34,823 nucleotides of DNA from a virus. Under the pieces are notes generated by a model. That model worked only from the letters and a program-made list of their open reading frames with translations, did not search any database and had not been told where the DNA came from. Below, one piece after another: positions 3,866 through 34,823 of this stretch (positions are counted from its first letter, which is position 1; each line of letters starts with the position of its first letter). The stretch is from the UHGV virus genome UHGV-0362719; one strand, 5' to 3'. A program made the position numbers and the translations under genes.

Positions 3866-4167
3866 TGTCCTGTTCTCGTTCAGTTGTATTACTGAATAAC
3901 GCCTTAAAAATCGCCGTTATGAAAAATGGCGATTTGTCTCTTATTCAACTTGGTCTTGATAAAGAAAAACGCGAAATAACTGAGTCTGTTATCGCGATTT
4001 ATCAGAACGAATTAAACCTCCTGTCTGATGTGGTCAATTTGCTTGTTAAACGCGCTGTGTTTCACAAGCAAATCTCCTCCGTGGATGAACTGACGAAATT
4101 AACGACAGAAATCGCCAGCTATTGCGCTGATGAATTTAAAAACCTTAACGACAAAAGGAACTGGTAA
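3862..4167 (+). CDS. Early hypothetical protein, P2 orf81-like
   Basis: Track ORF; start overlaps the previous stop (ATGA), typical translational coupling. Confidence 0.5.
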
Positions 4168-4391
4168 TGCCGGACAACGTAGATTTTATTCAGGCACAAC
4201 AGGCTGAATTACTGGAGCGCCAGATTAACGCGGCAAGGGTAAAACATTGCGGTGCTTCTGCGATGGTTTGCGAAGAGTGTGACGCGCCAATACCTGCTGC
4301 CCGTCGTGCGGCTTATCCGTCAGCCACGCGTTGTGTTTCCTGTCAGTCAGTTTTTGAAGCAAAAAACAAACATTACCGGAGAACGGCATGA
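4167..4391 (+). CDS. TraR/DksA-type C4 zinc-finger protein, P2 orf82-like
   Basis: Seen: CEECDAPIP...CVSCQ, two CxxC pairs about 20 aa apart, the pattern of DksA/TraR-family zinc fingers. Confidence 0.55.
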   Translation: MPDNVDFIQAQQAELLERQINAARVKHCGASAMVCEECDAPIPAARRAAYPSATRCVSCQSVFEAKNKHYRRTA

Positions 4392-4663
4392 GTATTCGTA
4401 TTGAAATTGGCGAACGTTATGTCGTTACCAGTGACAGCTTTCAGTTTATTCTCCACGAGAAAAAGAGAGCTGAAAGCGGTAAAAACGCCGGTCAGGAATG
4501 GCTGGCGGTGGTTGGTTATTACCCGAAATTAAGCCAGCTCGTTTCCGGCCTGATGCATCACGATATTCTGACCGGAAGCGCAAAGTCTTTTGCTGATTTA
4601 AACGCGCAGGTTGAGCAACTCAGCAAGCGTTGTTCAGAGGCTTTTGGCTCATATGGCCGTTAA
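4388..4663 (+). CDS. Early hypothetical protein, P2 orf83-like
   Basis: Track ORF immediately upstream of and overlapping the A start. Confidence 0.5.
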   Translation: MSIRIEIGERYVVTSDSFQFILHEKKRAESGKNAGQEWLAVVGYYPKLSQLVSGLMHHDILTGSAKSFADLNAQVEQLSKRCSEAFGSYGR

Positions 4664-6923
4664 AGCCTCCGGGCGTTTTGTCCCTCCGTCAGCATTTGCC
4701 GCAGGCACCGGTGAGACGTTTACCGGTGCTTATGCATGGAACGCGCCACGCGAGGCCGTCGGGCGCGAAAGACCCCTTACACGTGACGAGATGCGTCAGG
4801 TGCAAGGTGTTTTATCCACGATTAATCGCCTGCCTTACTTTTTGCGCTCGCTGTTTACTTCACGCTATGACTACATCCGGCGCAATAAAAGCCCGGTGCA
4901 CGGGTTTTATTTCCTCACATCCACTTTTCAGCGTCGTTTATGGCCGCGCATTGAGCGTGTGAATCAGCGCCATGAAATGAACACCGACGCGTCGATGCTG
5001 TTTCTGGCTGAGCGTGACCACTATGCGCGCCTGCCGGGAATGAATGACAAGGAGCTGAAAAAGTTTGCCGCCCGTATCTCATCGCAGCTTTTCATGATGT
5101 ATGAGGAACTCAGCGATGCCTGGGTGGATGCGCATGGCGAAAAAGAATCGCTGTTTACGGATGAGGCGCAGGCTCACCTCTATGGTCATGTTGCTGGCGC
5201 TGCACGTGCTTTCAATATTTCCCCTCTCTACTGGAAAAAATACCGTAAAGGACAGATGACCACGAGGCAGGCATATTCTGCCATTGCCCGTCTGTTTAAC
5301 GATGAGTGGTGGATTAGTCAGCTTAAAGGCCAGCGTATGCGCTGGCATGAGGCGTTACTGATTGCTGTCGGGGAGGTCAATAAAGACCGTTCTCCTTATG
5401 CCAGTAAACATGCCATTCGTGATGTGCGTGCACGCCGCCAGGCAAATCTGGAATTTCTTAAATCGTGTGATCTCGAAAACAGGGAAACAGGCGAGCGCAT
5501 CGACCTTATCAGTAAGGTGATGGGCAGTATTTCTAATCCTGAAATTCGCCGGATGGAGCTGATGAACACCATTGCCGGTATTGAGCGTTACGCCGCCGCA
5601 GAAGGTGATGTGGGGATGTTTATCACGCTGACCGCGCCGTCAAAGTATCACCCGACACGTCAGGTTGGAAAAGGCGAAAGTAAAACCGTCCAGCTAAATC
5701 ACGGCTGGAACGATGAGGCATTTAATCCAAAGGATGCGCAGCGTTATCTCTGCCGTATCTGGAGCCTGATGCGCACGGCATTCAAGGATAATGATTTACA
5801 GGTCTACGGTTTGCGAGTCGTCGAGCCACACCACGACGGAACGCCGCACTGGCATATGATGCTTTTTTGTAATCCACGCCAGCGTAACCAGATTATCGAA
5901 ATCATGCGTCGCTACGCGCTCAAAGAGGATGGCGACGAAAGAGGAGCTGCGCGAAACCGTTTTCAGGCAAAACATCTTAATCGGGGCGGTGCTGCGGGGT
6001 ATATCGCGAAATACATCTCAAAAAATATCGACGGCTATGCACTGGATGGGCAGCTCGATAACGATACCGGCAGACCGCTGAAAGATACTGCCGCGGCTGT
6101 TACCGCATGGGCGTCAACGTGGCGCATTCCGCAATTTAAAACGGTTGGCCTGCCGACAATGGGGGCTTACCGTGAACTACGCAAATTGCCTCGCGGCGTC
6201 AGCATTGCTGATGAGTTTGACGAGCGCGTCGAGGCTGCACGCGCCGCCGCAGACAGTGGTGATTTTGCGCTGTATATCAGCGCGCAGGGTGGGGCAAATG
6301 TCCCGCGCGATTGTCAGACTGTCAGGGTCGCCCGTAGTCCGTCGGATGAAGTTAACGAGTACGAGGAAGAAGTCGAGAGAGTGGTCGGCATTTACGCGCC
6401 GCATCTCGGCGCGCGTCATATTCATATCACCAGAACGACGGACTGGCGCATTGTTCCGAAAGTGCCGGTCGTTGAGCCTTTGACTTTAAAAAGCGGCATC
6501 GCCGCGCCTCGGAGTCCTGTCAATAACTGTGGAAAGCTCACCGGTGGTGATACTTCGTTACCGGCTCCCACACCTTCTGAACACGCCGCAGCAGTGCTTA
6601 ATCTGGTTGATGACGGTGTTATCGAATGGAATGACACGGAGGTCGTGAGGGCGCTCAGGGGGGCATTAAAACACGACCTGAGAACACCAAATCGTCAGCA
6701 AAGAAACGGAAGCCCGTTAAAACCACATGAAATTGCACCATCGGCCCGACTGACCCGGTCGGAACGAATGCAAATCACCCGTATCCGCGTTGACCTTGCC
6801 CAGAACGGTATCAGGCCGCAGCGATGGGAGCTTGAGGTGCTGGCGCGTGGCGCGACCGTAAATTATGACGGGAAAAAATTCACGTATCCGGTCACTGATG
6901 AGTGGCCGGGGTTTGTGGATTAA
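4650..6923 (+). CDS. A: Rolling-circle replication initiator / nickase A
   Basis: Track ORF 4611-6923 (770 aa); I prefer the start MAVKASGRF at about 4650, giving about 757 aa (P2 A about 761 aa). Largest early gene, directly after the orf80-83 block. Start codon uncertain. Confidence 0.85.
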   Translation, partial: HMAVKASGRFVPPSAFAAGTGETFTGAYAWNAPREAVGRERPLTRDEMRQVQGVLSTINRLPYFLRSLFTSRYDYIRRNKSPVHGFYFLTSTFQRRLWPRIERVNQRHEMNTDASMLFLAERDHYARLPGMNDKELKKFAARISSQLFMMYEELSDAWVDAHGEKESLFTDEAQAHLYGHVAGAARAFNISPLYWKKYRKGQMTTRQAYSAIARLFNDEWWISQLKGQRMRWHEALLIAVGEVNKDRSPYASKHAIRDVRARRQANLEFLKSCDLENRETGERIDLISKVMGSISNPEIRRMELMNTIAGIERYAAAEGDVGMFITLTAPSKYHPTRQVGKGESKTVQLNHGWNDEAFNPKDAQRYLCRIWSLMRTAFKDNDLQVYGLRVVEPHHDGTPHWHMMLFCNPRQRNQIIEIMRRYALKEDGDERGAARNRFQAKHLNRGGAAGYIAKYISKNIDGYALDGQLDNDTGRPLKDTAAAVTAWASTWRIPQFKTVGLPTMGAYRELRKLPRGVSIADEFDERVEAARAAADSGDFALYISAQGGANVPRDCQTVRVARSPSDEVNEYEEEVERVVGIYAPHLGARHIHITRTTDWRIVPKVPVVEPLTLKSGIAAPRSPVNNCGKLTGGDTSLPAPTPSEHAAAVLNLVDDGVIEWNDTEVVRALRGALKHDLRTPNRQQRNGSPLKPHEIAPSARLTRSERMQITRIRVDLAQNGIRPQRWELEVLARGATVNYDGKKFTYPVTDEWPGFVD

Positions 6924-6968
6924 ACTTATTGATAAATAATGTGTCAAGATAACGCCAGGTAATTATAT

Positions 6969-7406
6969 ATGGTAAGAGTTTGCATTGATAAGAAAGGGAA
7001 TGTTATCACCGATATCTCTTTGGGAGTCGGGGATTTTGAAGATTGTTGTAGCGTAGCAGAGGAGAAGTATAATCAGGCACTTTGCAGTAATTTTGTGAGT
7101 GTGGTGGCAGTGGTGAATGACGATAATGAGAAAATAGGTTTTTGTTCATTCATCATTGAATCTACAGAGGACGCTGTAATATATCAAATCGATTATGTTT
7201 GGGTTAAGCAAAGTGAGCGGGGACAAGGGTTATCAAAATTAATGATTCCTTATGTGGCTCAAGAGCTTATTTCTATTTATAAAGACTTGCTTGGAAAGTA
7301 TTCATTTGGTGATATATGTCTTTGTGATAATTCTGTTTATATATCGGATGGAGGGGCTGTTTTTGGTCGAGGGGTAAAGGGATTCACCTTTAATGTAATT
7401 AAGTAA
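6969..7406 (+). CDS. Cargo ORF, GNAT-like acetyltransferase candidate
   Basis: 145 aa, low GC. Segment VWVKQSERGQGLSKLMI resembles the GNAT motif-A acetyl-CoA loop (R-G-x-G-h-g). Weak, by-eye call. Confidence 0.4.
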   Translation: MVRVCIDKKGNVITDISLGVGDFEDCCSVAEEKYNQALCSNFVSVVAVVNDDNEKIGFCSFIIESTEDAVIYQIDYVWVKQSERGQGLSKLMIPYVAQELISIYKDLLGKYSFGDICLCDNSVYISDGGAVFGRGVKGFTFNVIK

Positions 7407-7462
7407 TTCCGGGTGAAATGAAAAAGATATCTCAATGTTTGAGATGGAACAAATTTAAGAAA

Positions 7463-7500
7463 CTCCGCCGGTGCTGAAACTTGCTTTCAGTGCTGGCGGA
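7463..7500. terminator. Bidirectional hairpin between convergent cargo ORFs
   Basis: Seen: about 15-bp imperfect stem (CCGCCGGTGCTGAAA / TTTCAGTGCTGGCGG, three G-U wobbles) with loop CTTGC, lying between the stops of 6969-7406 (+) and 7515-7946 (-). Confidence 0.5.
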
Positions 7501-7514
7501 GGTGAAGTAAGGCG

Positions 7515-7946
7515 TTAGCTAGTTATCAGATTGACACCGAGGGTAAGCAGGTTTGTTACTGCACCGGCAATAACACCAGGTGTCCCGTCCTTCACTGCGC
7601 TGATAATCTTATCTCCCATCGTTTCATTACCGCCAAGTGCTTCGGGTTTTTTGTTGAGCACCGCGAGTGCTTTCTCGGTCAGTCGCACATCATGAAAACC
7701 GGTCTGATGGTCTGTTCCGTACAGAATATAGCCGTTTTCGCTTAAGAAAGTGAATGTGCCATCAACCACACTACGCAACTGATTCAGTGCTTTCATTTCT
7801 GGTGAGTTAAGTTGGTCAAAGTAGTCATCAGGTAACGCGGCGTTAAATTTTTTGTAGGTGATGACTTGTGGTACAGGAAAGTTATCCCATAGCACCGCAA
7901 AGATTTCTGCCGTCTGTTGGTTGAATAATTCGAGATTTTTGGACAT
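7515..7946 (-). CDS. Cargo hypothetical protein (143 aa), unknown function
   Basis: Track ORF with AAGGGA RBS about 8 nt upstream of ATG; hydrophobic Gly/Ala-rich C-terminal tail (GTPGVIAGAVTNLLTLGVNLI). No recognisable family. Confidence 0.55.
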   Translation of the reverse strand: MSKNLELFNQQTAEIFAVLWDNFPVPQVITYKKFNAALPDDYFDQLNSPEMKALNQLRSVVDGTFTFLSENGYILYGTDHQTGFHDVRLTEKALAVLNKKPEALGGNETMGDKIISAVKDGTPGVIAGAVTNLLTLGVNLITS

Positions 7947-8450
7947 GCATAGTTCCCTTTCATCAATTAAAGACCCTTATGCCGACTGGGCAAAGAGGCT
8001 AACTGTAATGGCCTCAAATAACGACCTGAGCTCACGCGAGGTGGACAGTTACACTGAAAAAATGGTTGAACAAGCCAGTAAAGATGAGCTTATGGTCGTT
8101 ATAAAATACCTGTTAAATCACATCAGAATGAGTAAATAAAATGATCTATATCAAGATGTTATCTCACATTTATGAAAGTCCGTGGACAACGATTTTTCTG
8201 CTAATTGTTGTCAGTACGTGCCTCAACAGTGTGATTGGTGCATTGCGCGGCCAGTGACAACTATAAAAATTGATCAGAACCGGCACCATGAATGCCGGTT
8301 TTTTTGTGCTTTTTCTGTGATATCCCCGTTTTTATCTGTGCATGGTTTTGCATGTGCCGGAGTTACATGTTCTGGCTGTGCGTCCGCCAGGACTGGCGTG
8401 GCTCAAAAGCGGTATTGCAACTGCATTAAAACCGCCCCATGAAGCGGGCG

Positions 8451-8469
8451 GGCGAGGCGGGGAAAGCAC
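8451..8469. promoter_or_regulatory. cos: Putative cos site (19-nt cohesive end GGCGAGGCGGGGAAAGCAC)
   Basis: Seen: exact 19-mer GGCGAGGCGGGGAAAGCAC at 8451-8469 with flanking dyad symmetry (CCGCCC...GGGCGG). Matches my recollection of the P2/P4 cohesive-end sequence, which I cannot verify here. Confidence 0.5.
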
Positions 8470-8575
8470 CGCGCGTAAGATAAACAGAAGAGCGAAGGAT
8501 TATGGTTGAGTATTTGTGTTTTTGTACATATGATAAAAAGGTGTTTACGCTTAAAAACACATCAAAGGAGATGAT

Positions 8576-9877
8576 ATGGAAAATATAAAGATTGATAAGT
8601 TTCTCACTATTCAAAAAGTTGATATTCCTCTTAAGAAAGTGAATATATTTATTGGGCCTCAGGCACAGGGGAAAAGTGTCATTGCAAAGCTAATAAAATA
8701 TTTTAAAGATTACCCTATGGATATACTACGAGCTTCAACAGAGGGTAAAACTAAAAGAGATATATTGAAGGAGCAAAAGAATAAGTTTAGTAAAATTTTC
8801 CCTCAGCAGTATTGGGCTGATGATGAGTTTTTTATTGAGTATAGTAATAAGCACTATTGGGTGCGGATTACTAATCGAAAAGATAGCAAAGGGTCATTGA
8901 AAATAACCCTTTCTGAGAATTTAACGAAGACGATTGCTAAACTTCGTTTGATTGTACGAAAGGATTTAGATGAAAATATTGAGAATTCACTTGCAGAAAG
9001 CGTTACGAGAAGACGTAAACGCGGAATTGAACATGAATTGCGAGTATGTCTTTCTCTAGGATTGTTTTCAGAACCAGAAACAAAGCTTGAAAGTGTTTTT
9101 TATATCCCCGCAGGGCGCTCTTTTTTTGCTAACTTGCAAAAAAATGTGTTTTCATTTTTATCCAGTAGTATAGAAATTGACTACTTTTTGACAGAGTTTG
9201 GTTCTCTGTATGAACAAACAAAAAAATTATTTAGCCAAGATTACATGATTAGGATGCTTAGGGGGGCTGTGCCTCAACATGTTAATAAGCTTGTGGAGGA
9301 GTTGATTTGCGGAAAATATATAACAGAAAAGGGTGAGGATTTTATTCGTCATGCTGCTAAAAAGACGAATCTTAACAACTCGAGCTCAGGGCAGCAAGAA
9401 GCGTTACCAATGGCTTTAATGTTATCCTCATGGCCGTATTTACAGTCTATGACTAGTAAGAGTTTTATTATTGAGGAGCCGGAGGCTCATCTGTTTCCTT
9501 CTGCCCAAGCAAAAGTTGTATCTTTAATAGCCTCAGCGTATAACCAAGCAGAAAGCTATTGTAGCTATACAATAACAACACATAGCCCATATATTCTAAG
9601 TGCCTTCAATAATTTGATTCAAGCAGGTAATGCATTGAAGTGTATTAAGGGCAAGAATAATGCCGATATCGAACGCTTATATAAGCTTGTTCCAGAGTCT
9701 CAAATTATTGATTTTGATGATGTGACAGCTTATATGGTTAATGCTGGGAAAGTGACGGAAATACTGGATTCCGAACTAAATATATTAGATGCGAATGAAA
9801 TAGATAGGATTTCCTCTATTTTTTCAGAGACTTTTGATGCATTGATTGATATCGAATATTCGGCTACTGTGAATTAG
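8576..9877 (+). CDS. ABC-type (OLD/SMC/RecF-like AAA_15/AAA_21-type) ATPase, candidate defence protein
   Basis: 433 aa, strong AAGGAG RBS. Seen motifs: Walker A GPQAQGKS; signature-like SSGQQ; Walker B/D-loop FIIEEPEAHLFP; H-loop TTHSP. No TOPRIM-like C-terminal domain evident. Very low GC relative to the backbone. Confidence 0.8.
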   Translation: MENIKIDKFLTIQKVDIPLKKVNIFIGPQAQGKSVIAKLIKYFKDYPMDILRASTEGKTKRDILKEQKNKFSKIFPQQYWADDEFFIEYSNKHYWVRITNRKDSKGSLKITLSENLTKTIAKLRLIVRKDLDENIENSLAESVTRRRKRGIEHELRVCLSLGLFSEPETKLESVFYIPAGRSFFANLQKNVFSFLSSSIEIDYFLTEFGSLYEQTKKLFSQDYMIRMLRGAVPQHVNKLVEELICGKYITEKGEDFIRHAAKKTNLNNSSSGQQEALPMALMLSSWPYLQSMTSKSFIIEEPEAHLFPSAQAKVVSLIASAYNQAESYCSYTITTHSPYILSAFNNLIQAGNALKCIKGKNNADIERLYKLVPESQIIDFDDVTAYMVNAGKVTEILDSELNILDANEIDRISSIFSETFDALIDIEYSATVN

Positions 9878-9885
9878 GTGATTGA

Positions 9886-10323
9886 ATGTGTAAAAATTGC
9901 AAAGGAAAAACAAAAAATAAAATCATTGTGCTATCTGATAAAGGAACGTCAACGCAATTGTCAGTCATAAATGATAATGAGTTGGAGGTTGAGCATAAGT
10001 TAATAGATGGTTGCGCTATTGTTGTTGGGGAGCGGTGTGATCATTATTTGAAGATTTATAACAATCAGGATGTTTCACATCTTTTTGTTGAACTTAAAGG
10101 AAGTGATGTTGAAAAAGCTGTTAAACAGATAGTGACAACTTTAAAGTCAGGTGTGATTAATGTAGGTGCTAAAGAAAAAAAACATGGTGCTATTGTTAGC
10201 ACTAGGAATCCGCTAAACTCAACAGAAACCAATAAGTTAAAGAAGAAAATTCTTTTGAGTGACGGAGTGAATTTGCATTTCTATAAAATGAAGGCGCAGC
10301 AAAAAATAACTTCTTTTACATGA
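9886..10323 (+). CDS. Small partner protein of the ABC ATPase (145 aa), possible nuclease-like effector
   Basis: Starts 9 bp after the ATPase stop, same strand (operon). N-terminal CKNCKGK (CxxC); possible D...ExK arrangement (ERCDHY ... LFVELKG). Nuclease assignment is inference only. Confidence 0.6.
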   Translation: MCKNCKGKTKNKIIVLSDKGTSTQLSVINDNELEVEHKLIDGCAIVVGERCDHYLKIYNNQDVSHLFVELKGSDVEKAVKQIVTTLKSGVINVGAKEKKHGAIVSTRNPLNSTETNKLKKKILLSDGVNLHFYKMKAQQKITSFT

Positions 10324-10336
10324 AGTGTTCTCTTGT

Positions 10337-10360
10337 ACAGGCATGCATTTGCATGCCTGT
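10337..10360 (+). terminator. Palindromic hairpin after the ATPase cassette
   Basis: Seen: ACAGGCATGCA-TT-TGCATGCCTGT near-perfect palindrome 14 bp after the 10323 stop, followed by a weak T-rich stretch. Confidence 0.4.
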
Positions 10361-10426
10361 CGTGTAATCTTTTACACTATATTTGTGTTGGTTCTAATCT
10401 TGTTATGTGTTTGTTTCGGTGATGGA

Positions 10427-11446
10427 TCATAATGAATAAGTTCGAAAGCGAAATACATCTTCGCCAACCCAACAGTTAATTTCTTTACATCGCTCTTGGA
10501 GGAACGTTAGCTCGTTGCGTACAAAGACTTGTGCTGCTTTTGTTACATCTCCAAATCCTCCTGTGTTGTTGGGCATCATTCCTATCATTTGGGGAGGCAC
10601 GCGATGAGCACTCATTAGATCTTCAGCACTTGCTTTTTTGATATTAAAAAAATCGTCCTTCGTTGCCACTTCACTGAGCGGGATAATTTTAATGCCGTCG
10701 GCTTTCCCCTGCGGGGCATAGAGAAACAGATTTTTAAAGTTATTGCGGCCTTTCGACTTAACCATGTTTTCGCGAAGCATTTCGATATCGTTGCGATCCT
10801 GCACGGCATCGGTGACGTACATGATGTATCCGGCATGTGCGCCATTTTCGTAATACTTGCGGCGGAACAGCGTGGCTGATTCATTCAGCCAGGCAGAGTT
10901 AAGGGCGCTGAGATACTCCGGCAGGCCGTACAGCTCCTGATTAATATCCGGCTCCAGCAGGTGAAACACGGAGCCGGGCGCGAAAGGTGTCGGCTCGTTG
11001 AAGGACGGCACCCACCAGTAAACATCCTCCTCCACGCCACGGCGGGTATATTTTGCCGGTGAGGTTTCCAGTCTGATGACCTTACCGGTGGTGCTGTAAC
11101 GCTTTTCCAGAAACGCATTACCGAATACCAGAAAATCCAGCACAAAGCGGCTGAAATCCTGCTGAGAAAGCCACGGGTGTGGGATAAACGTTGAGGCCAG
11201 AATGTTACGTTTGACGTAAATCGGTGAGCTGTGATGCACGGCAGCACGCAGGCTTTTTGCCAGACCGGTAAAGCTGACTGGTGGCTCATACCATCTGCCG
11301 TTACTGATGCACTCGACGTAATCCAGAATGTCACGGCGGTCGAGTACCGGCACCGGCTCACCAAAGGTGAATGCCTCCATTTTCGGGGCGCTGGCGGTCA
11401 TTTTTTTTGCCGCAGGTTGCGGTGTTTTCCCTTTTTTCTTGCTCAT
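10427..11446 (-). CDS. Q: Portal protein Q
   Basis: 339 aa (P2 Q about 344 aa), leftward, immediately downstream of P with overlapping stop/start; synteny. Confidence 0.9.
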   Translation of the reverse strand: MSKKKGKTPQPAAKKMTASAPKMEAFTFGEPVPVLDRRDILDYVECISNGRWYEPPVSFTGLAKSLRAAVHHSSPIYVKRNILASTFIPHPWLSQQDFSRFVLDFLVFGNAFLEKRYSTTGKVIRLETSPAKYTRRGVEEDVYWWVPSFNEPTPFAPGSVFHLLEPDINQELYGLPEYLSALNSAWLNESATLFRRKYYENGAHAGYIMYVTDAVQDRNDIEMLRENMVKSKGRNNFKNLFLYAPQGKADGIKIIPLSEVATKDDFFNIKKASAEDLMSAHRVPPQMIGMMPNNTGGFGDVTKAAQVFVRNELTFLQERCKEINCWVGEDVFRFRTYSL

Positions 11447-19592: not shown

Positions 19593-19626
19593 TTTTATCC
19601 AGGCAGAGGCTGATGCGCAATTAAGC

Positions 19627-19653
19627 ATTGAGCGGCCGTGCTGGTCGCTCAAT
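19627..19653. terminator. Inverted repeat between S (+) and the convergent cargo ORF (-)
   Basis: Seen: ATTGAGCGGCC / GGTCGCTCAAT stem with short loop; no clear T-tract, so terminator function is uncertain. Confidence 0.35.
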
Positions 19654-19663
19654 ATTTAGAGGT

Positions 19664-20449
19664 TTATGAGTGGTTTTTATTTGATGCTTTGTATTCTAAA
19701 ACCTTCTTATTGGCGTAAAGGAATTTTGTATATGACAGGAATATAAGCAGACCTGAAATGAAATAGGTTAGGGACATTATTAATAATGTTTTTCTGTAGC
19801 TGTTATTATCTTTAATCTCCTGACTTAACCATTCGGAGTCCTCCTTGTTTAGCTGTAAGAGCTTATTGCAGGCGATCTCGGGAAGTGTGTCTTTTATAAA
19901 TACGTTTTGCAGACTCTTGCAATCGGCAAGGCTATAAGTTTTATTAAATTCAACCGTTTTATTTTTGAAGGATAAAAGAACTTTGTCACTATAAACATAG
20001 TACATCATATTTTTATATGGTATACCTATGGCATCCCTTACTATAGCGGATTGTTCATTGTGTATATAACATGCGAAGAGAATATAAATAATACTGGCCA
20101 GAATTACAATTGTTGTTTTAATTATGTGTGGTGGTTTTGTTATGTCACCCCAGAAGCGAGTAAGGAAAAAATACGATGTTTTTAGTTTTCCATCAATCAG
20201 CCCCTGCTGTATCATTCTCACATCTTCGATGCCTGATACATTGATTCCGTTAATTATTTTAAATAGTTGAATGTCGCGCCATTTTTTGTCGAGCATTTTT
20301 AACTTTCTGTCTGAATACTCAAGATTGAAATGATGTGCAATAAACCTCATAAGATTACTTTTACCAAAGGTAACAAATGTTAATGCTATTAATAAAAATA
20401 GATACAAAGAGATAAACCACCACGCATTAGTCACATTATCACTGAACAT
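19664..20449 (-). CDS. Cargo multi-pass membrane protein (261 aa) at the S-V junction (P2 orf30 position)
   Basis: Track ORF on the opposite strand to the late operons; very AT-rich; hydrophobic helices seen (WWFISLYLFLLIALTFVTF, TIVILASIIYILFACYIH, LLIMSLTYFISGLLIFL). Confidence 0.6.
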   Translation of the reverse strand: MFSDNVTNAWWFISLYLFLLIALTFVTFGKSNLMRFIAHHFNLEYSDRKLKMLDKKWRDIQLFKIINGINVSGIEDVRMIQQGLIDGKLKTSYFFLTRFWGDITKPPHIIKTTIVILASIIYILFACYIHNEQSAIVRDAIGIPYKNMMYYVYSDKVLLSFKNKTVEFNKTYSLADCKSLQNVFIKDTLPEIACNKLLQLNKEDSEWLSQEIKDNNSYRKTLLIMSLTYFISGLLIFLSYTKFLYANKKVLEYKASNKNHS

Positions 20450-20532
20450 TACGCTCTCCTCGAATGTTGTATGGTCGTTCTACAAATGAATCCAGATAGC
20501 ATAACTTTTATATATTGTGCAATCTCACACGC

Positions 20533-26011: not shown

Positions 26012-26290
26012 TTACTTGTTCCACTCAGTCAGAATTTGGTTACTAACTTCATCTGAGAGATTGTACCAATAAGCTGAGTTATTGGTTGCGTCTACAACAA
26101 TAAGCTTATCATCACTATCCATGACCGCCCTCACAATTTTGGCTGCATCCTCGGCAGAGTAACTACAGTTAACATACCAGTTCGATTCAGTTGTTAAAGC
26201 CCAATTTCCTAAAGATTTAATTGCATCATACACAGCCGCATAATCTTTCGTTTTAATGAGGTCGTAAGTAATAAATAAATTATTAGCCAT
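26012..26290 (-). CDS. Cargo hypothetical protein (92 aa) at the G-FI (Z/fun) position
   Basis: Track ORF, AT-rich, opposite strand to the tail operons, followed by a hairpin terminator; no recognisable motif. Confidence 0.5.
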   Translation of the reverse strand: MANNLFITYDLIKTKDYAAVYDAIKSLGNWALTTESNWYVNCSYSAEDAAKIVRAVMDSDDKLIVVDATNNSAYWYNLSDEVSNQILTEWNK

Positions 26291-26342
26291 AAATCATCTC
26301 CCAAAGGACAAAGAAAAAAGCGCCTAGAAAGGCGCTCATATA

Positions 26343-26561
26343 TTAATGGTCTTTAAGCCATGCCTGTACTTTCTTAGCCGAATGACCTACAGCCTGTACG
26401 GCTTGAACAAGTTTGGCCTCGCTAACTCCAAACTTTTCAGCCCAATCACGTCTCTCGTAATCCTGTTTGATACTTATTAAATCATTGTCAGGGGTACCGA
26501 TTTTGGTCTTATCATCAGCCATTTTACTGATTCCTCGTGATACAGGCTTATACCTGCCCAT
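26343..26561 (-). CDS. Cargo small protein, DUF3606-like (by-eye resemblance)
   Basis: Track ORF (72 aa; alternative start MADDKTKIG gives about 59 aa). Segment DWAEKFGVSEAKLVQAVQAVGHSAKKVQAWL resembles DUF3606-family small proteins from memory. Confidence 0.45.
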   Translation of the reverse strand: MGRYKPVSRGISKMADDKTKIGTPDNDLISIKQDYERRDWAEKFGVSEAKLVQAVQAVGHSAKKVQAWLKDH

Positions 26562-27013
26562 TAGTTATATGGCTCCCGTGCTGCTTCGTAAACGTTCAAT
26601 AATCAAACAATTGACACTGATCATAAAACCAGTTAGAGGATTTGACTCTAGCTTGGATATATGATGATGCCACCCCCTTTATATTGTTGTCGGTAACTCA
26701 CAGACATTGAACTCATGCTGGTGAGTGAAAGGCTACATAAACGCCCAACATTTAAACTGCCCTCAGCAGCGTTTGCGGAGCAATATACAGGCTTCGTATT
26801 CAATCCTTGCCCTACGAGAAACCCTAGCCGTTGCCTCGTTTTCAAGTGTCAGGAAGTTCTTTGTCAGACCTCATACAGTCTTGGGCTGGGTGAGGTGCAT
26901 GGGGGAAGTAGAAGCCTTAACTGTTGAGGTAAATCGAACCATAAGTGTGCAATTTTTCAAGCCCGGCGCTATTTTAGTATTGAAAACAATTAGTACGCCC
27001 CCAAGGACAACTC

Positions 27014-27706
27014 ATGATCGAATTTATCGCAGAGCATATAAACACAGTAAGTACACTTATCTCCGCTTTGGCAGCATTGCTAACAGCAGTTGCTACATTT
27101 TTCTTGTGGAGAGTAACAAGGCTATTAGCAGACGAGACAAAAAGGATGGTTGACGCATCAGTTCAACCTCATGTCGTTGTGACTCTTGAACCAAATTCTT
27201 GGGCTGCTTTTTATTTTGATATCAATATTGCTAATACCGGAAATGCCCCAGCCTATGATATTGAAGTCGAATTTAATCCCCCACTGGTTAATGCAGAACA
27301 TAGAAAAAATAAAGGTATACCATTTAGCAAGGTTAGCGTATTGAAAAACGGTCATTCCCTCAACAGCAGTCTTTGTAAGTATGACCAGATTAAAGATCAA
27401 GTTTATTCTGTTAGTATTAGCTGGTCTAAACAGCCGGGCTCAACTGAAAGAGAGCGGAATGAGTATTCTTATGATATGGCTTCTTTCGAGGGGGTTAGCT
27501 ACTTAGGTGCAAGGAGTCCAATGACACAGATAGCTGAGCAGATGAAAAAGATTAGAGAAGACTGGAGGCCGATTTCCCAGGGAAGCAAAAAAATTAAAAC
27601 AGACAACTATAATTCAAGTGACAGAGCAGAGGAACAACGAGCACGTGAAGAGTGGTATCAGACCACTGTAAAGAAATGGGATAAAGAAAGGCCAAAAGAT
27701 AACTAA
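27014..27706 (+). CDS. Cargo membrane-anchored protein (230 aa) at the Z/fun position, candidate defence or exclusion protein
   Basis: Track ORF; N-terminal TM helix (VSTLISALAALLTAVATFFLW) followed by a soluble domain with a charged Lys/Glu/Arg-rich C-terminus; AT-rich; followed by terminator 27841-27870. Confidence 0.6.
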   Translation: MIEFIAEHINTVSTLISALAALLTAVATFFLWRVTRLLADETKRMVDASVQPHVVVTLEPNSWAAFYFDINIANTGNAPAYDIEVEFNPPLVNAEHRKNKGIPFSKVSVLKNGHSLNSSLCKYDQIKDQVYSVSISWSKQPGSTERERNEYSYDMASFEGVSYLGARSPMTQIAEQMKKIREDWRPISQGSKKIKTDNYNSSDRAEEQRAREEWYQTTVKKWDKERPKDN

Positions 27707-34669: not shown

Positions 34670-34696
34670 AAAAAATAAGCCCGTGTAAGGGAGATT
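34670..34696. repeat. attR: attR core: 27-bp direct repeat AAAAAATAAGCCCGTGTAAGGGAGATT
   Basis: Exact copy of 975-1001, located about 100 bp downstream of ogr and its terminator. Confidence 0.85.
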
Positions 34697-34823
34697 ACAC
34701 AGGCTAAGGAGGTGGTTCCTGGTACAGCTAGCATTTTATGGGTTATGTTTTTCAGCGAAACGGATGATAACCTTAATAAATGCAGCTGTATGTGATCGGT
34801 TTCTAAGAATTTTCCATCCGGGA

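What the first reader, a model, noticed from the sequence alone, without database searches (positions are those of the whole stretch)
6924..8575. The tin/old locus is replaced by different cargo: a GNAT-like ORF and a convergent 143-aa ORF upstream of cos
Immediately after replication gene A, where P2 carries orf91, tin and old, this prophage has a low-GC 145-aa ORF with a GNAT-like acetyl-CoA loop (6969-7406) and, convergent to it across a hairpin, a 143-aa ORF with a hydrophobic Gly/Ala-rich C-terminal tail (7515-7946). Neither resembles Tin or Old by size. Both are candidates for single-gene defence, anti-defence or superinfection-exclusion functions.
Basis: partly seen in the sequence, partly recalled or inferred. 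Interest (0 to 1): 0.55.

Follow-up and report, generated by a model that had tools for sequence, protein, structure and literature searches.

The report
Swapped cargo genes beside P2 cos
In this P2-like E. coli prophage, the slot that holds the defence genes tin and old in phage P2 holds a rare miniature acetyltransferase-like gene and a more widespread pair of small divergent genes; the slot is a known swap site, so this is new, untested cargo rather than a new kind of system.

Summary
A low-GC 145-aa ORF lies at 6969-7406 (+). A convergent 143-aa ORF lies at 7515-7946 (-). A 17-bp hairpin separates them, and an exact P2 cos site lies at 8451-8469.

The interval is the left half of the published gpA-gpQ accessory hotspot of P2-like phages. 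This exact gene arrangement is already listed, as "hypothetical" and untested, in Rousset 2022 Table S5.

It is a mosaic of two independently exchanged blocks.

- **Block 1 (about 6915-7454)** encodes a minimal GNAT-fold protein. The family is very rare: 10 representatives among 1.84 billion proteins, and 11 of 5,426 E. coli genomes. Five of the eight relatives whose context could be read sit in the same hotspot of other P2-like prophages.
- **Block 2 (7455-8475)** is not strain-specific cargo. The pair lies next to cos in 79 of 5,426 E. coli genomes and in several other Enterobacterales genera, beside different left-hand cargo (retron, DinI, metallo-beta-lactamase-fold gene).

None of the three proteins matches a known defence family. 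Defence or counter-defence roles are inferred from location only.

Verdict: new members of a known kind; moderate interest.

The parts
4653..6923 (+). Replication endonuclease gpA (context). Backbone homology to P2 and other P2-like prophages ends at about 6905-6914, just before its stop codon.
   Evidence: 97% identity to P2 up to 6913.
6915..7454 (+). Block 1: a unique low-GC cassette carrying the mini-GNAT gene. No other hotspot variant examined has it.
   Evidence: Breakpoints from blastn against 7 related loci. The DNA is present in only 11 of 5,426 E. coli genomes, all at least 99.8% identical.
6969..7406 (+). 145-aa minimal GNAT-fold protein (RefSeq WP_000252694.1). It starts 46 bp after the gpA stop on the same strand, with AGGT 8 nt upstream of the ATG.
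7428..7446 (.). Small A/U-rich 8-bp hairpin at the 3' end of block 1. It has no U-tract and its role is unknown.
7464..7502 (-). 17-bp GC-rich hairpin followed by a T-rich run on the minus strand. It is the likely intrinsic terminator of the 143-aa gene and may also stop rightward transcription. It belongs to block 2.
   Evidence: Fold. Homology to 186-like prophages starts at 7455, so it includes this hairpin.
7455..8475 (.). Block 2: a conserved cos-proximal module made of the terminator, the 143-aa gene, the 64-aa gene, a second terminator and cos. It is shared at 71-96% nucleotide identity with P2-like and 186-like prophages that carry other left-hand cargo.
7515..7946 (-). 143-aa protein (WP_000042039.1, phrog_2266). 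It has a winged-helix domain (about residues 1-100) and a conserved C-terminal pair of helices, the last one hydrophobic and Gly/Ala-rich. AAGGGA lies 7 nt upstream of the ATG.
7945..8139 (+). 64-aa ORF (WP_024173623.1, phrog_2454), divergent from the 143-aa gene. The two start codons overlap within the palindrome ATGCAT (7945-7950).
   Evidence: PHROG E = 3.9e-38; annotated in RefSeq; reading frame and sequence conserved at 51-98% amino-acid identity in 10 of 10 P2-like loci that carry the 143-aa gene.
8276..8302 (+). Terminator-like hairpin (10-bp stem followed by TTTTTTTGTGCTTT) downstream of the 64-aa ORF.
8451..8469 (+). cos: an exact copy of the 19-nt cohesive-end sequence of phage P2.
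   Evidence: string taken from the cosR feature of NC_001895.

Best explanation
The interval from gpA to cos is the left half of the known gpA-gpQ accessory hotspot of P2-like phages. Here it is filled by two modules that recombine independently.

**Module 1** is a single-gene, low-GC cassette.
- It encodes a 145-aa minimal GNAT-fold protein. The acyl-CoA-binding core (beta4-alpha3-beta5-alpha4) and the R-x-x-G-x-S loop are kept, and the model shows no beta6/beta7.
- It belongs to a very rare family whose main home is this same hotspot in other P2-like prophages.
- It occupies the orf91 slot, 46 bp behind gpA. I found no terminator and no convincing promoter in between, so here it is most likely transcribed with the early replication operon (inferred).
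- I propose that it is a stand-alone acyl-CoA-dependent acyltransferase that modifies a protein or small-molecule target in conflicts between phages or between phage and host. Defence of the lysogen is somewhat more likely than counter-defence. This is inferred from location and neighbours only.

**Module 2** is a semi-conserved cos-proximal unit.
- It holds a leftward 143-aa winged-helix (MarR-like topology) protein with a hydrophobic C-terminal helix, and a divergent 64-aa protein. Their start codons overlap, and each gene has its own terminator.
- It stands in the place and orientation of the old-tin operon of P2, which starts from a promoter near cos.
- I read the 143-aa protein as a DNA-binding regulator, or a nucleic-acid-binding accessory protein, that acts together with the 64-aa partner (inferred from fold and gene arrangement).
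For: **Hotspot and mosaic structure**
- P2 has orf91(+), tin(-) and old(-) here, with the old-tin transcript starting near cos.
- The gpA-gpQ interval is a published hotspot with 1,650 different arrangements. The exact arrangement seen here is in its Table S5.
- Homology breakpoints lie at about 6914, 7455/7530, 8475 and 10626.

**GNAT**
- Pfam and PHROG acetyltransferase hits.
- AF2 pLDDT 94.4, with the order beta1, alpha, beta2-beta4, long alpha3, beta5, alpha4.
- The motif A loop aligns to RimI Q76-G79-G81.

**Rarity**
- One cluster in the word-indexed search.
- Ten representatives with E at or below 1e-3 among 1.84 billion proteins.
- 11 of 5,426 E. coli genomes.
- One weak hit among 50,697 phage records.

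**Hotspot association of the family**
- P0073, P0074, P0075, P0077 and P0078 (33-40% identity) all lie between gpA and the portal gene of other P2-like prophages. They occur in both orientations, and in one case (L032) the gene is the only cargo. A cos-like site lies between the portal gene and the GNAT gene in L029 and L032.
- Two further relatives lie next to a type III-A retron and next to a MADS system.

**Module 2**
- phrog_2266 and phrog_2454 hits.
- 71 protein clusters in Escherichia, Salmonella, Klebsiella, Citrobacter, Enterobacter, Kosakonia, Cronobacter and others.
- 79 of 5,426 E. coli genomes.
- Always found between cos and varying cargo: retron RT, metallo-beta-lactamase-fold gene or DinI.
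- The 64-aa frame is kept in 10 of 10 P2-like loci down to 51% identity.
- Winged-helix fold, including many MarR-family hits; weak profile match to the MarR-type regulator FabT.
- Terminators on both sides.
Against: **GNAT**
- No function has been shown for any of the three proteins, and none matches a PADLOC model.
- By my own reading of the family alignment, the position of the usual catalytic Tyr of motif B is Gly133 here and varies across the family.
- The middle Gly of the CoA loop is Lys in most relatives. Catalysis and acetyl-CoA binding are therefore unproven.
- The Vibrio relatives are single chromosomal genes between mscS and osmC, with no mobile or defence context. That fits a housekeeping or detoxifying enzyme as well as a conflict role.
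- Co-transcription with gpA is inferred only from the 46-bp gap and the weak promoter matches (best 8 of 12). In other prophages the gene stands in the opposite orientation and must have its own promoter.

**143-aa protein**
- Only one of the five AF2 models is confident (90.2, against 68-74).
- No consensus promoter was found for either gene of the pair.
Confidence: 0.55

Rival explanations
1. The mini-GNAT is an abortive-infection toxin of the TacT/AtaT type. When a competing phage infects, it acetylates aminoacyl-tRNA and stops translation.
Confidence: 0.12
2. The mini-GNAT is a counter-defence enzyme made early in lytic growth. It inactivates a host immune protein by acetylation, as the anti-CRISPR AcrVA5 does to Cas12a.
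For: In this window and in L026 and L027 it follows gpA on the same strand, where early-operon read-through would express it at infection or induction. One relative lies two genes from an AcrVA2-like protein. Another lies beside RadC, DUF932 and YqaJ genes, which from my own knowledge is a gene set typical of anti-defence regions of mobile elements. The precedent of a small GNAT acting as an anti-CRISPR is also from my own knowledge.
Confidence: 0.2
3. The mini-GNAT is an ordinary lysogenic-conversion gene. It is a small-molecule acetyltransferase (acting on an antibiotic, polyamine, toxic amino-acid analogue or microcin) that benefits the host and has nothing to do with phage conflict.
Against: The family is strongly concentrated in P2-like hotspots at only 33-40% identity. 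That implies long residence in these phages rather than a recent random pick-up. There is no match to any curated resistance or metabolic family in NCBIfam.
Confidence: 0.22
4. The 143-aa protein is a tail-anchored inner-membrane protein that excludes superinfecting phage, for example by blocking DNA entry. It is not a soluble regulator.
For: The C-terminal 19-20 residues (GVIAGAVTNLLTLGVNLIT) reach a hydropathy of 1.58 and end 1-2 residues before the stop codon. This tail is the most conserved part of the protein. The gene stands in the old/tin position and orientation.
Against: The hydropathy is only borderline. AF2 packs the helix against the winged-helix domain with pLDDT 87-94 over residues 111-140 in its best model. 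MarR-type proteins use C-terminal helices for dimerisation (my own knowledge), and a weak FabT alignment covers residues 50-135. There is no signal peptide or second membrane segment.
Confidence: 0.15

Closest known systems
P2 gpA-gpQ (cos-proximal) accessory/defence hotspot (Rousset et al. 2022, PMC9122126; 2026 NAR survey, PMC13586616)
   Same: Same position between gpA and the portal gene, flanking cos. It has low-GC blocks with sharp homology breakpoints, and different cargo in otherwise 97%-identical prophages. The exact protein set is catalogued.
   Different: The catalogue lists these proteins only as 'hypothetical'. Their accessions occur only in the locus table (Table S5), not in the table of tested systems. 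Two points were not found in the parts of those papers I read: the recurrence of the mini-GNAT family in this hotspot, and the constancy of the 143/64-aa pair.
P2 orf91 / tin / old
   Same: Same slots. A rightward gene lies directly behind A (orf91 in P2, the GNAT here). A leftward unit starts near cos (old-tin in P2, the 143-aa gene here).
   Different: There is no sequence relationship. P2 matches the window only up to 6913 and over 48 nt at cos. Orf91 is a DUF3850 protein, Old is an AAA ATPase-type nuclease of 586 aa and Tin has 253 aa.
GNAT (GCN5-related N-acetyltransferase) superfamily, e.g. RimI, TacT/AtaT, polyamine acetyltransferases
   Same: The fold core and the acyl-CoA loop, and a marginal pass of the Pfam Acetyltransf_1 threshold.
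MarR-type and other winged-helix DNA-binding proteins
   Different: No Pfam HTH or MarR model is matched. The Gly/Ala-rich hydrophobic C-terminus is unusual. The partner gene is divergent with an overlapping start codon.

Membership tests
GNAT superfamily | Conserved fold: beta1-alpha1-alpha2-beta2-beta3-beta4-alpha3-beta5-alpha4-beta6(-beta7) | tested here: inconclusive
GNAT superfamily | Motif A acyl-CoA pyrophosphate loop, [Q/R]-x-x-G-x-[G/A] | tested here: met
   R84-G-Q-G87-L-S89 aligns to RimI Q76-R-Q-G79-L-G81. Across the family R84 is invariant, but G87 is often Lys.
GNAT superfamily | Score above the curated Pfam threshold | tested here: met
   Acetyltransf_1 scores 22.0 bits against a cut-off of 20.7, a marginal pass. 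Acetyltransf_7 scores 26 against 27, a fail.
GNAT superfamily | Acyl-CoA-dependent transferase activity | not testable with these tools
   This needs biochemistry.
GNAT type II toxins (TacT/AtaT/KacT) | Adjacent cognate antitoxin gene in the same operon | tested here: not met
   gpA ends 46 bp upstream and a hairpin and a convergent gene lie downstream, so there is no small partner ORF.
GNAT type II toxins (TacT/AtaT/KacT) | Conserved catalytic Tyr in motif B | tested here: inconclusive
   By pattern matching of S126-x-x-G129-x-x-F132-G133 to N-x-x-A-x-x-[LF]-Y, the Tyr position is Gly133 and varies across the family. No structural superposition was available to confirm this.
Known anti-phage defence systems (PADLOC-DB 2.0) | Significant match to a defence-protein model | tested here: not met
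   For the GNAT the best hit is PDC-M23A at E = 0.025. The 143-aa and 64-aa proteins have no hits.
P2 gpA-gpQ hotspot cargo | Lies between gpA and gpQ next to cos, and varies among otherwise near-identical prophages | tested here: met
P2 gpA-gpQ hotspot cargo | Confers phage resistance when cloned | not testable with these tools
   The accessions occur only in the locus table (Table S5) of Rousset 2022, not in the table of tested systems.
Old / Tin of phage P2 | Sequence homology to P2 Old or Tin | tested here: not met
   P2 DNA matches the window only over 4001-6913 and 8422-8469.
Winged-helix / MarR-like DNA-binding proteins (143-aa ORF) | Winged helix-turn-helix fold | tested here: met
Winged-helix / MarR-like DNA-binding proteins (143-aa ORF) | Match to a curated HTH or MarR sequence model | tested here: not met
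   No Pfam or NCBIfam hit. The best PDB profile hit is FabT at E = 0.48.
T7 gp5.5 / gp5.7 (suggested in the phage Midge annotation) | Profile similarity to T7 gp5.5 or gp5.7 | tested here: not met
   hhalign probability is 0.1% and 0.3%.

The most novel reading that the evidence does not exclude
The mini-GNAT belongs to a previously unrecognised family of single-gene effectors dedicated to the cos-proximal hotspot of P2-like phages. In this reading it is a roughly 145-aa acyltransferase with an invariant Cys-Ser pair. By itself it either protects the lysogen against other phages or satellites, or disarms a host immune protein. That would add acetylation by a stand-alone minimal GNAT to the known repertoire of phage-conflict mechanisms.
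Probability: 0.3. Interest if true: 0.65.

Novelty: new member of a known kind. Interest (0 to 1): 0.4.

Why it matters
The gpA-gpQ hotspot of P2-like phages has already yielded several validated defence systems. Uncharacterised cargo there is a productive place to look for new ones.

This analysis narrows the search in three ways.

- The 145-aa GNAT-fold gene is a compact candidate that can be cloned as a single gene. Its distant relatives recur in the same hotspot in several enterobacterial lineages, which argues for a phage-specific role.
- The 143/64-aa pair should be treated as a semi-conserved frame element next to cos, not as strain-specific cargo.
- The stronger conventional defence candidate in this prophage is the ATPase pair to the right of cos, outside the coordinates of the finding.

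Tried and rejected
1. **T7 gp5.5/5.7 lead.** The annotation of phage Midge suggests a relation between the 143-aa protein and T7 gp5.5/5.7. hhalign of the family profile against both T7 proteins gave probabilities below 1%, so I rejected it.
2. **Viral structure search.** A BFVD search for the 143-aa model found nothing below E = 0.1. The AFDB50 library was not available.
3. **Promoters.** Consensus scans, including a relaxed 8-of-12 scan, gave no convincing sigma-70 site upstream of the GNAT, the 143-aa gene or the 64-aa gene. They also found no site shared upstream of the GNAT relatives. Expression timing therefore stays inferred.
4. **IMG/VR scans.** Single-protein scans found only identical copies.
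5. **Known RNAs.** Rfam and tRNA scans found no RNA gene in the interval.
6. **Core-gene test.** They are not.
7. **PDB sequence searches.** Both family profiles gave only marginal hits.
Full report
**1. What is in the sequence**

The window is a P2-like prophage of E. coli. The stretch 6900-8575 is 100% identical to eight complete E. coli chromosomes. The backbone up to 6913 is 97% identical to phage P2.

- gpA ends at 6923.
- The ORF at 6969-7406 (+, 145 aa) follows after 46 bp.
- A convergent ORF lies at 7515-7946 (-, 143 aa).
- Between them, the 121-nt interval folds into an 8-bp hairpin (7428-7446) and a perfect 17-bp hairpin (7464-7502). The fold is -37.8 kcal/mol with z = -4.0.
- On the minus strand the large stem is followed by a T-rich run, so it reads as the terminator of the 143-aa gene.
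- GC is 36.8% for the first ORF and 44.9% for the second, against 53.6% for gpA.
- The 19-nt P2 cos sequence occurs exactly at 8451-8469.

Three things were missed.

- A 64-aa ORF lies at 7945-8139 (+). Its ATG overlaps the ATG of the 143-aa gene on the other strand, inside the palindrome ATGCAT.
- A terminator-like hairpin lies at 8276-8302 behind that ORF.
- A second variable block lies to the right of cos.

**2. The locus is a known hotspot, and this arrangement is already catalogued**

In P2, the interval from A to cos holds orf91 on the A strand, overlapping the end of A. It also holds tin and old on the opposite strand, transcribed from starts about 150 nt from cos.

Rousset et al. 2022 described the gpA-gpQ interval as a diversity hotspot, with 1,650 arrangements in 18,150 loci. 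Several of its cargo systems were validated as anti-phage systems. A 2026 survey confirmed it as the main defence hotspot of P2-like elements.

[quoted passage not shown] These are the RefSeq proteins of this window. The accessions occur only in that locus table, not in the table of tested systems.

**3. The interval is a mosaic of independent blocks**

blastn against seven related loci gives sharp breakpoints.

| Segment | Content | Sharing |
|---|---|---|
| up to about 6914 | backbone | shared with P2 and P2-like prophages |
| 6915-7454 | mini-GNAT block | unique |
| 7455 (or 7530) to 8475 | 143/64-aa pair and cos | shared with prophages carrying other cargo |
| 8476-10625 | ATPase pair | unique |
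| from 10626 | backbone (inside the portal gene) | shared |

The two ORFs of the finding therefore belong to different, separately exchanged modules.

**4. Module 1: a minimal GNAT-fold protein of a rare, hotspot-associated family**

*Sequence evidence for GNAT is thin but consistent.*
- Acetyltransf_1 scores 22.0 bits (cut-off 20.7), and Acetyltransf_7 scores 26 bits (cut-off 27).
- The PHROG acetyltransferase family matches at 3.2e-7.
- hhalign places R84-G-Q-G87-L-S89 on the CoA loop of RimI.

*Structure.*
- The AF2 model is confident (pLDDT 94.4).
- The tRNA-acetylating toxins TacT2, TacT3 and AtaT give the longest alignments. Their scores are barely above those of RimI or polyamine acetyltransferases.

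*Conserved residues.*
- C59, S60, I74, R84, S122 and G129 are invariant.
- By pattern matching, the usual catalytic Tyr position of motif B is Gly133 here and is variable. This is my reading and is not structurally verified.

*Rarity.*
- One cluster among 5.8 billion proteins in the word-indexed search.
- Ten representatives with E at or below 1e-3 among 1.84 billion proteins scored exhaustively.
- 11 of 5,426 complete E. coli genomes, all at least 99.8% identical.
- One weak tblastn hit among 50,697 phage records.

*Genomic contexts of the relatives.*
- P0073 lies directly after gpA on the same strand.
- P0075 lies one gene after gpA on the same strand.
- P0074 lies between an old-family gene and the portal gene.
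- P0077 and P0078 are in Klebsiella/Enterobacter-type P2-like prophages. They lie on the gpA side of a cos-like site, pointing towards gpA as old does in P2. In L032 the gene is the only gene between gpA and the portal gene.
- Two further relatives lie next to a type III-A retron (two genes from an AcrVA2-like protein) and next to a MADS system.
- The most distant ones are single chromosomal genes between mscS and osmC in Vibrio.

Five of the eight relatives whose context could be read, at only 33-40% identity, lie in the same hotspot as the window's own gene. That is a strong association, and it suggests a function tied to the biology of these phages.

**5. How the GNAT most likely works**

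*Shown:* the fold, the CoA-loop motif, the position, the rarity and the hotspot association.

*Inferred:* I propose that it is a stand-alone acyl-CoA-dependent acyltransferase acting on a protein or small molecule in conflicts between phages or between phage and host.

In this window, the 46-bp gap after gpA, the absence of a terminator and the lack of any promoter match better than 8 of 12 suggest read-through from the early operon, as for orf91 in P2.

The opposite orientation in other prophages shows that the gene can also run from its own promoter. Timing therefore cannot separate defence from counter-defence.

My estimates are roughly 0.35 for defence, 0.2 for counter-defence, 0.2-0.25 for a host-benefit detoxifying enzyme, and the remainder for something else or for an inactive protein.

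A TacT-like toxin is unlikely, because there is no antitoxin and Vibrio carries the gene alone.

**6. Module 2: a conserved divergent pair next to cos**

*The 143-aa protein.*
- It matches phrog_2266 at 3.3e-61.
- It has 71 clusters at 55-98% identity across Escherichia, Shigella, Salmonella, Klebsiella, Citrobacter, Enterobacter, Kosakonia, Cronobacter, Leclercia, Raoultella and others. All are unnamed.

*The pair.*
- It occurs in 79 of 5,426 E. coli genomes.
- In every P2-like or 186-like locus examined it lies immediately left of cos, while the gene(s) between it and gpA differ. These are the GNAT here, an HTH plus retron reverse transcriptase, a metallo-beta-lactamase-fold gene plus a hypothetical gene, or a DinI gene.
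- It is found with both P2-type and 186-type gpA backbones.
- The 64-aa ORF (phrog_2454, 3.9e-38) keeps its frame, its overlapping start and a conserved core (NNDLSSRE..YT.K......LLN.IR) down to 51% identity in 10 of 10 such loci. It is therefore a real gene.
- It is absent next to the two most distant 143-aa homologues found outside P2-like contexts.

*Structure of the 143-aa protein.*
- The best AF2 model has pLDDT 90.2, but the other four score 68-74.
- The best PDB profile hit is the MarR-type regulator FabT at E = 0.48.
- The C-terminal helix is the most conserved segment and is borderline for a membrane span.

*Reading.* I take the pair to be a DNA-binding regulator or accessory protein plus a small partner. 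It stands in the position and orientation of the old-tin unit and is probably expressed from the cos side. The main rival is a tail-anchored exclusion protein. No promoter could be identified.

**7. Comparison with what is known, and novelty**

The hotspot, its modular exchange and this very arrangement are published. No known defence, anti-defence or toxin family is matched.

Two observations appear to be new. I did not find either in the parts of the two hotspot papers that I read.
- The mini-GNAT family recurs in the P2 hotspot across lineages.
- The 143/64-aa pair is a constant cos-side element rather than variable cargo.

Both are new members of a known kind of locus content, not a new kind of system.

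**8. Verdict**

- Interest is 0.4. The locus gives a sound, easily testable single-gene candidate in a productive hotspot, but there is no functional evidence, and the context is already well described.

Noticed in passing
window 8576-10323 (unique block 8476-10625): To the right of cos lies a two-gene cassette with 33-35% GC: a 433-aa AAA_15/AAA_21 ATPase and a 145-aa partner. The best PADLOC matches are PDC-M29A (2e-31) and PDC-M29B (2.8e-4), with AriA-like and PD-T4-4_A-like similarity. It is the most conventional defence candidate in this prophage, and it is listed but untested in Rousset 2022 Table S5.
   Followed up: partly
window 10427-10625: Homology to other P2-like prophages resumes only at 10626, inside the portal gene (10427-11446, minus strand). 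The C-terminal 65 or so codons of the portal gene therefore travel with the variable block.
   Followed up: no
window 7944-7950: The start codons of the 143-aa (-) and 64-aa (+) genes overlap by 2 nt within the palindrome ATGCAT. Each gene's promoter must therefore lie inside the other gene, which is an unusual arrangement for a divergent pair.
   Followed up: partly
window 19593-20514: The gap between the S and V genes holds a leftward 261-aa ORF (19664-20449) with 33-34% GC and hydrophobic segments. It has no Pfam or PADLOC match. This insert is absent from the prophage of strain 2452, which shares the GNAT locus.
   Followed up: partly
window 26012-27706: The Z/fun slot between the tail-fibre assembly gene and the sheath gene carries ORFs with 37-40% GC (92 aa on the minus strand, 230 aa on the plus strand) that have no family match.
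   Followed up: no
window 34673-34758 (-): The CyaR/RyeE sRNA gene (100.7 bits) lies at the right edge of the window, just beyond the last phage ORFs. It probably marks the chromosomal flank of the prophage.
   Followed up: no
L006 468-5481; L007 8001-16435: Distant relatives of the mini-GNAT lie next to an AcrVA2-like gene plus a type III-A retron (PRTase + RT), and next to a MADS system (mad7/mad8) beside RadC, DUF932 and YqaJ genes.
   Followed up: partly
L026 about 7955-8408: The called start of the relative P0073 looks too short. The upstream in-frame sequence reads MLRICINKQGSVI..., which matches the N-terminus of the family, so the gene probably starts about 45 nt earlier.
   Followed up: no
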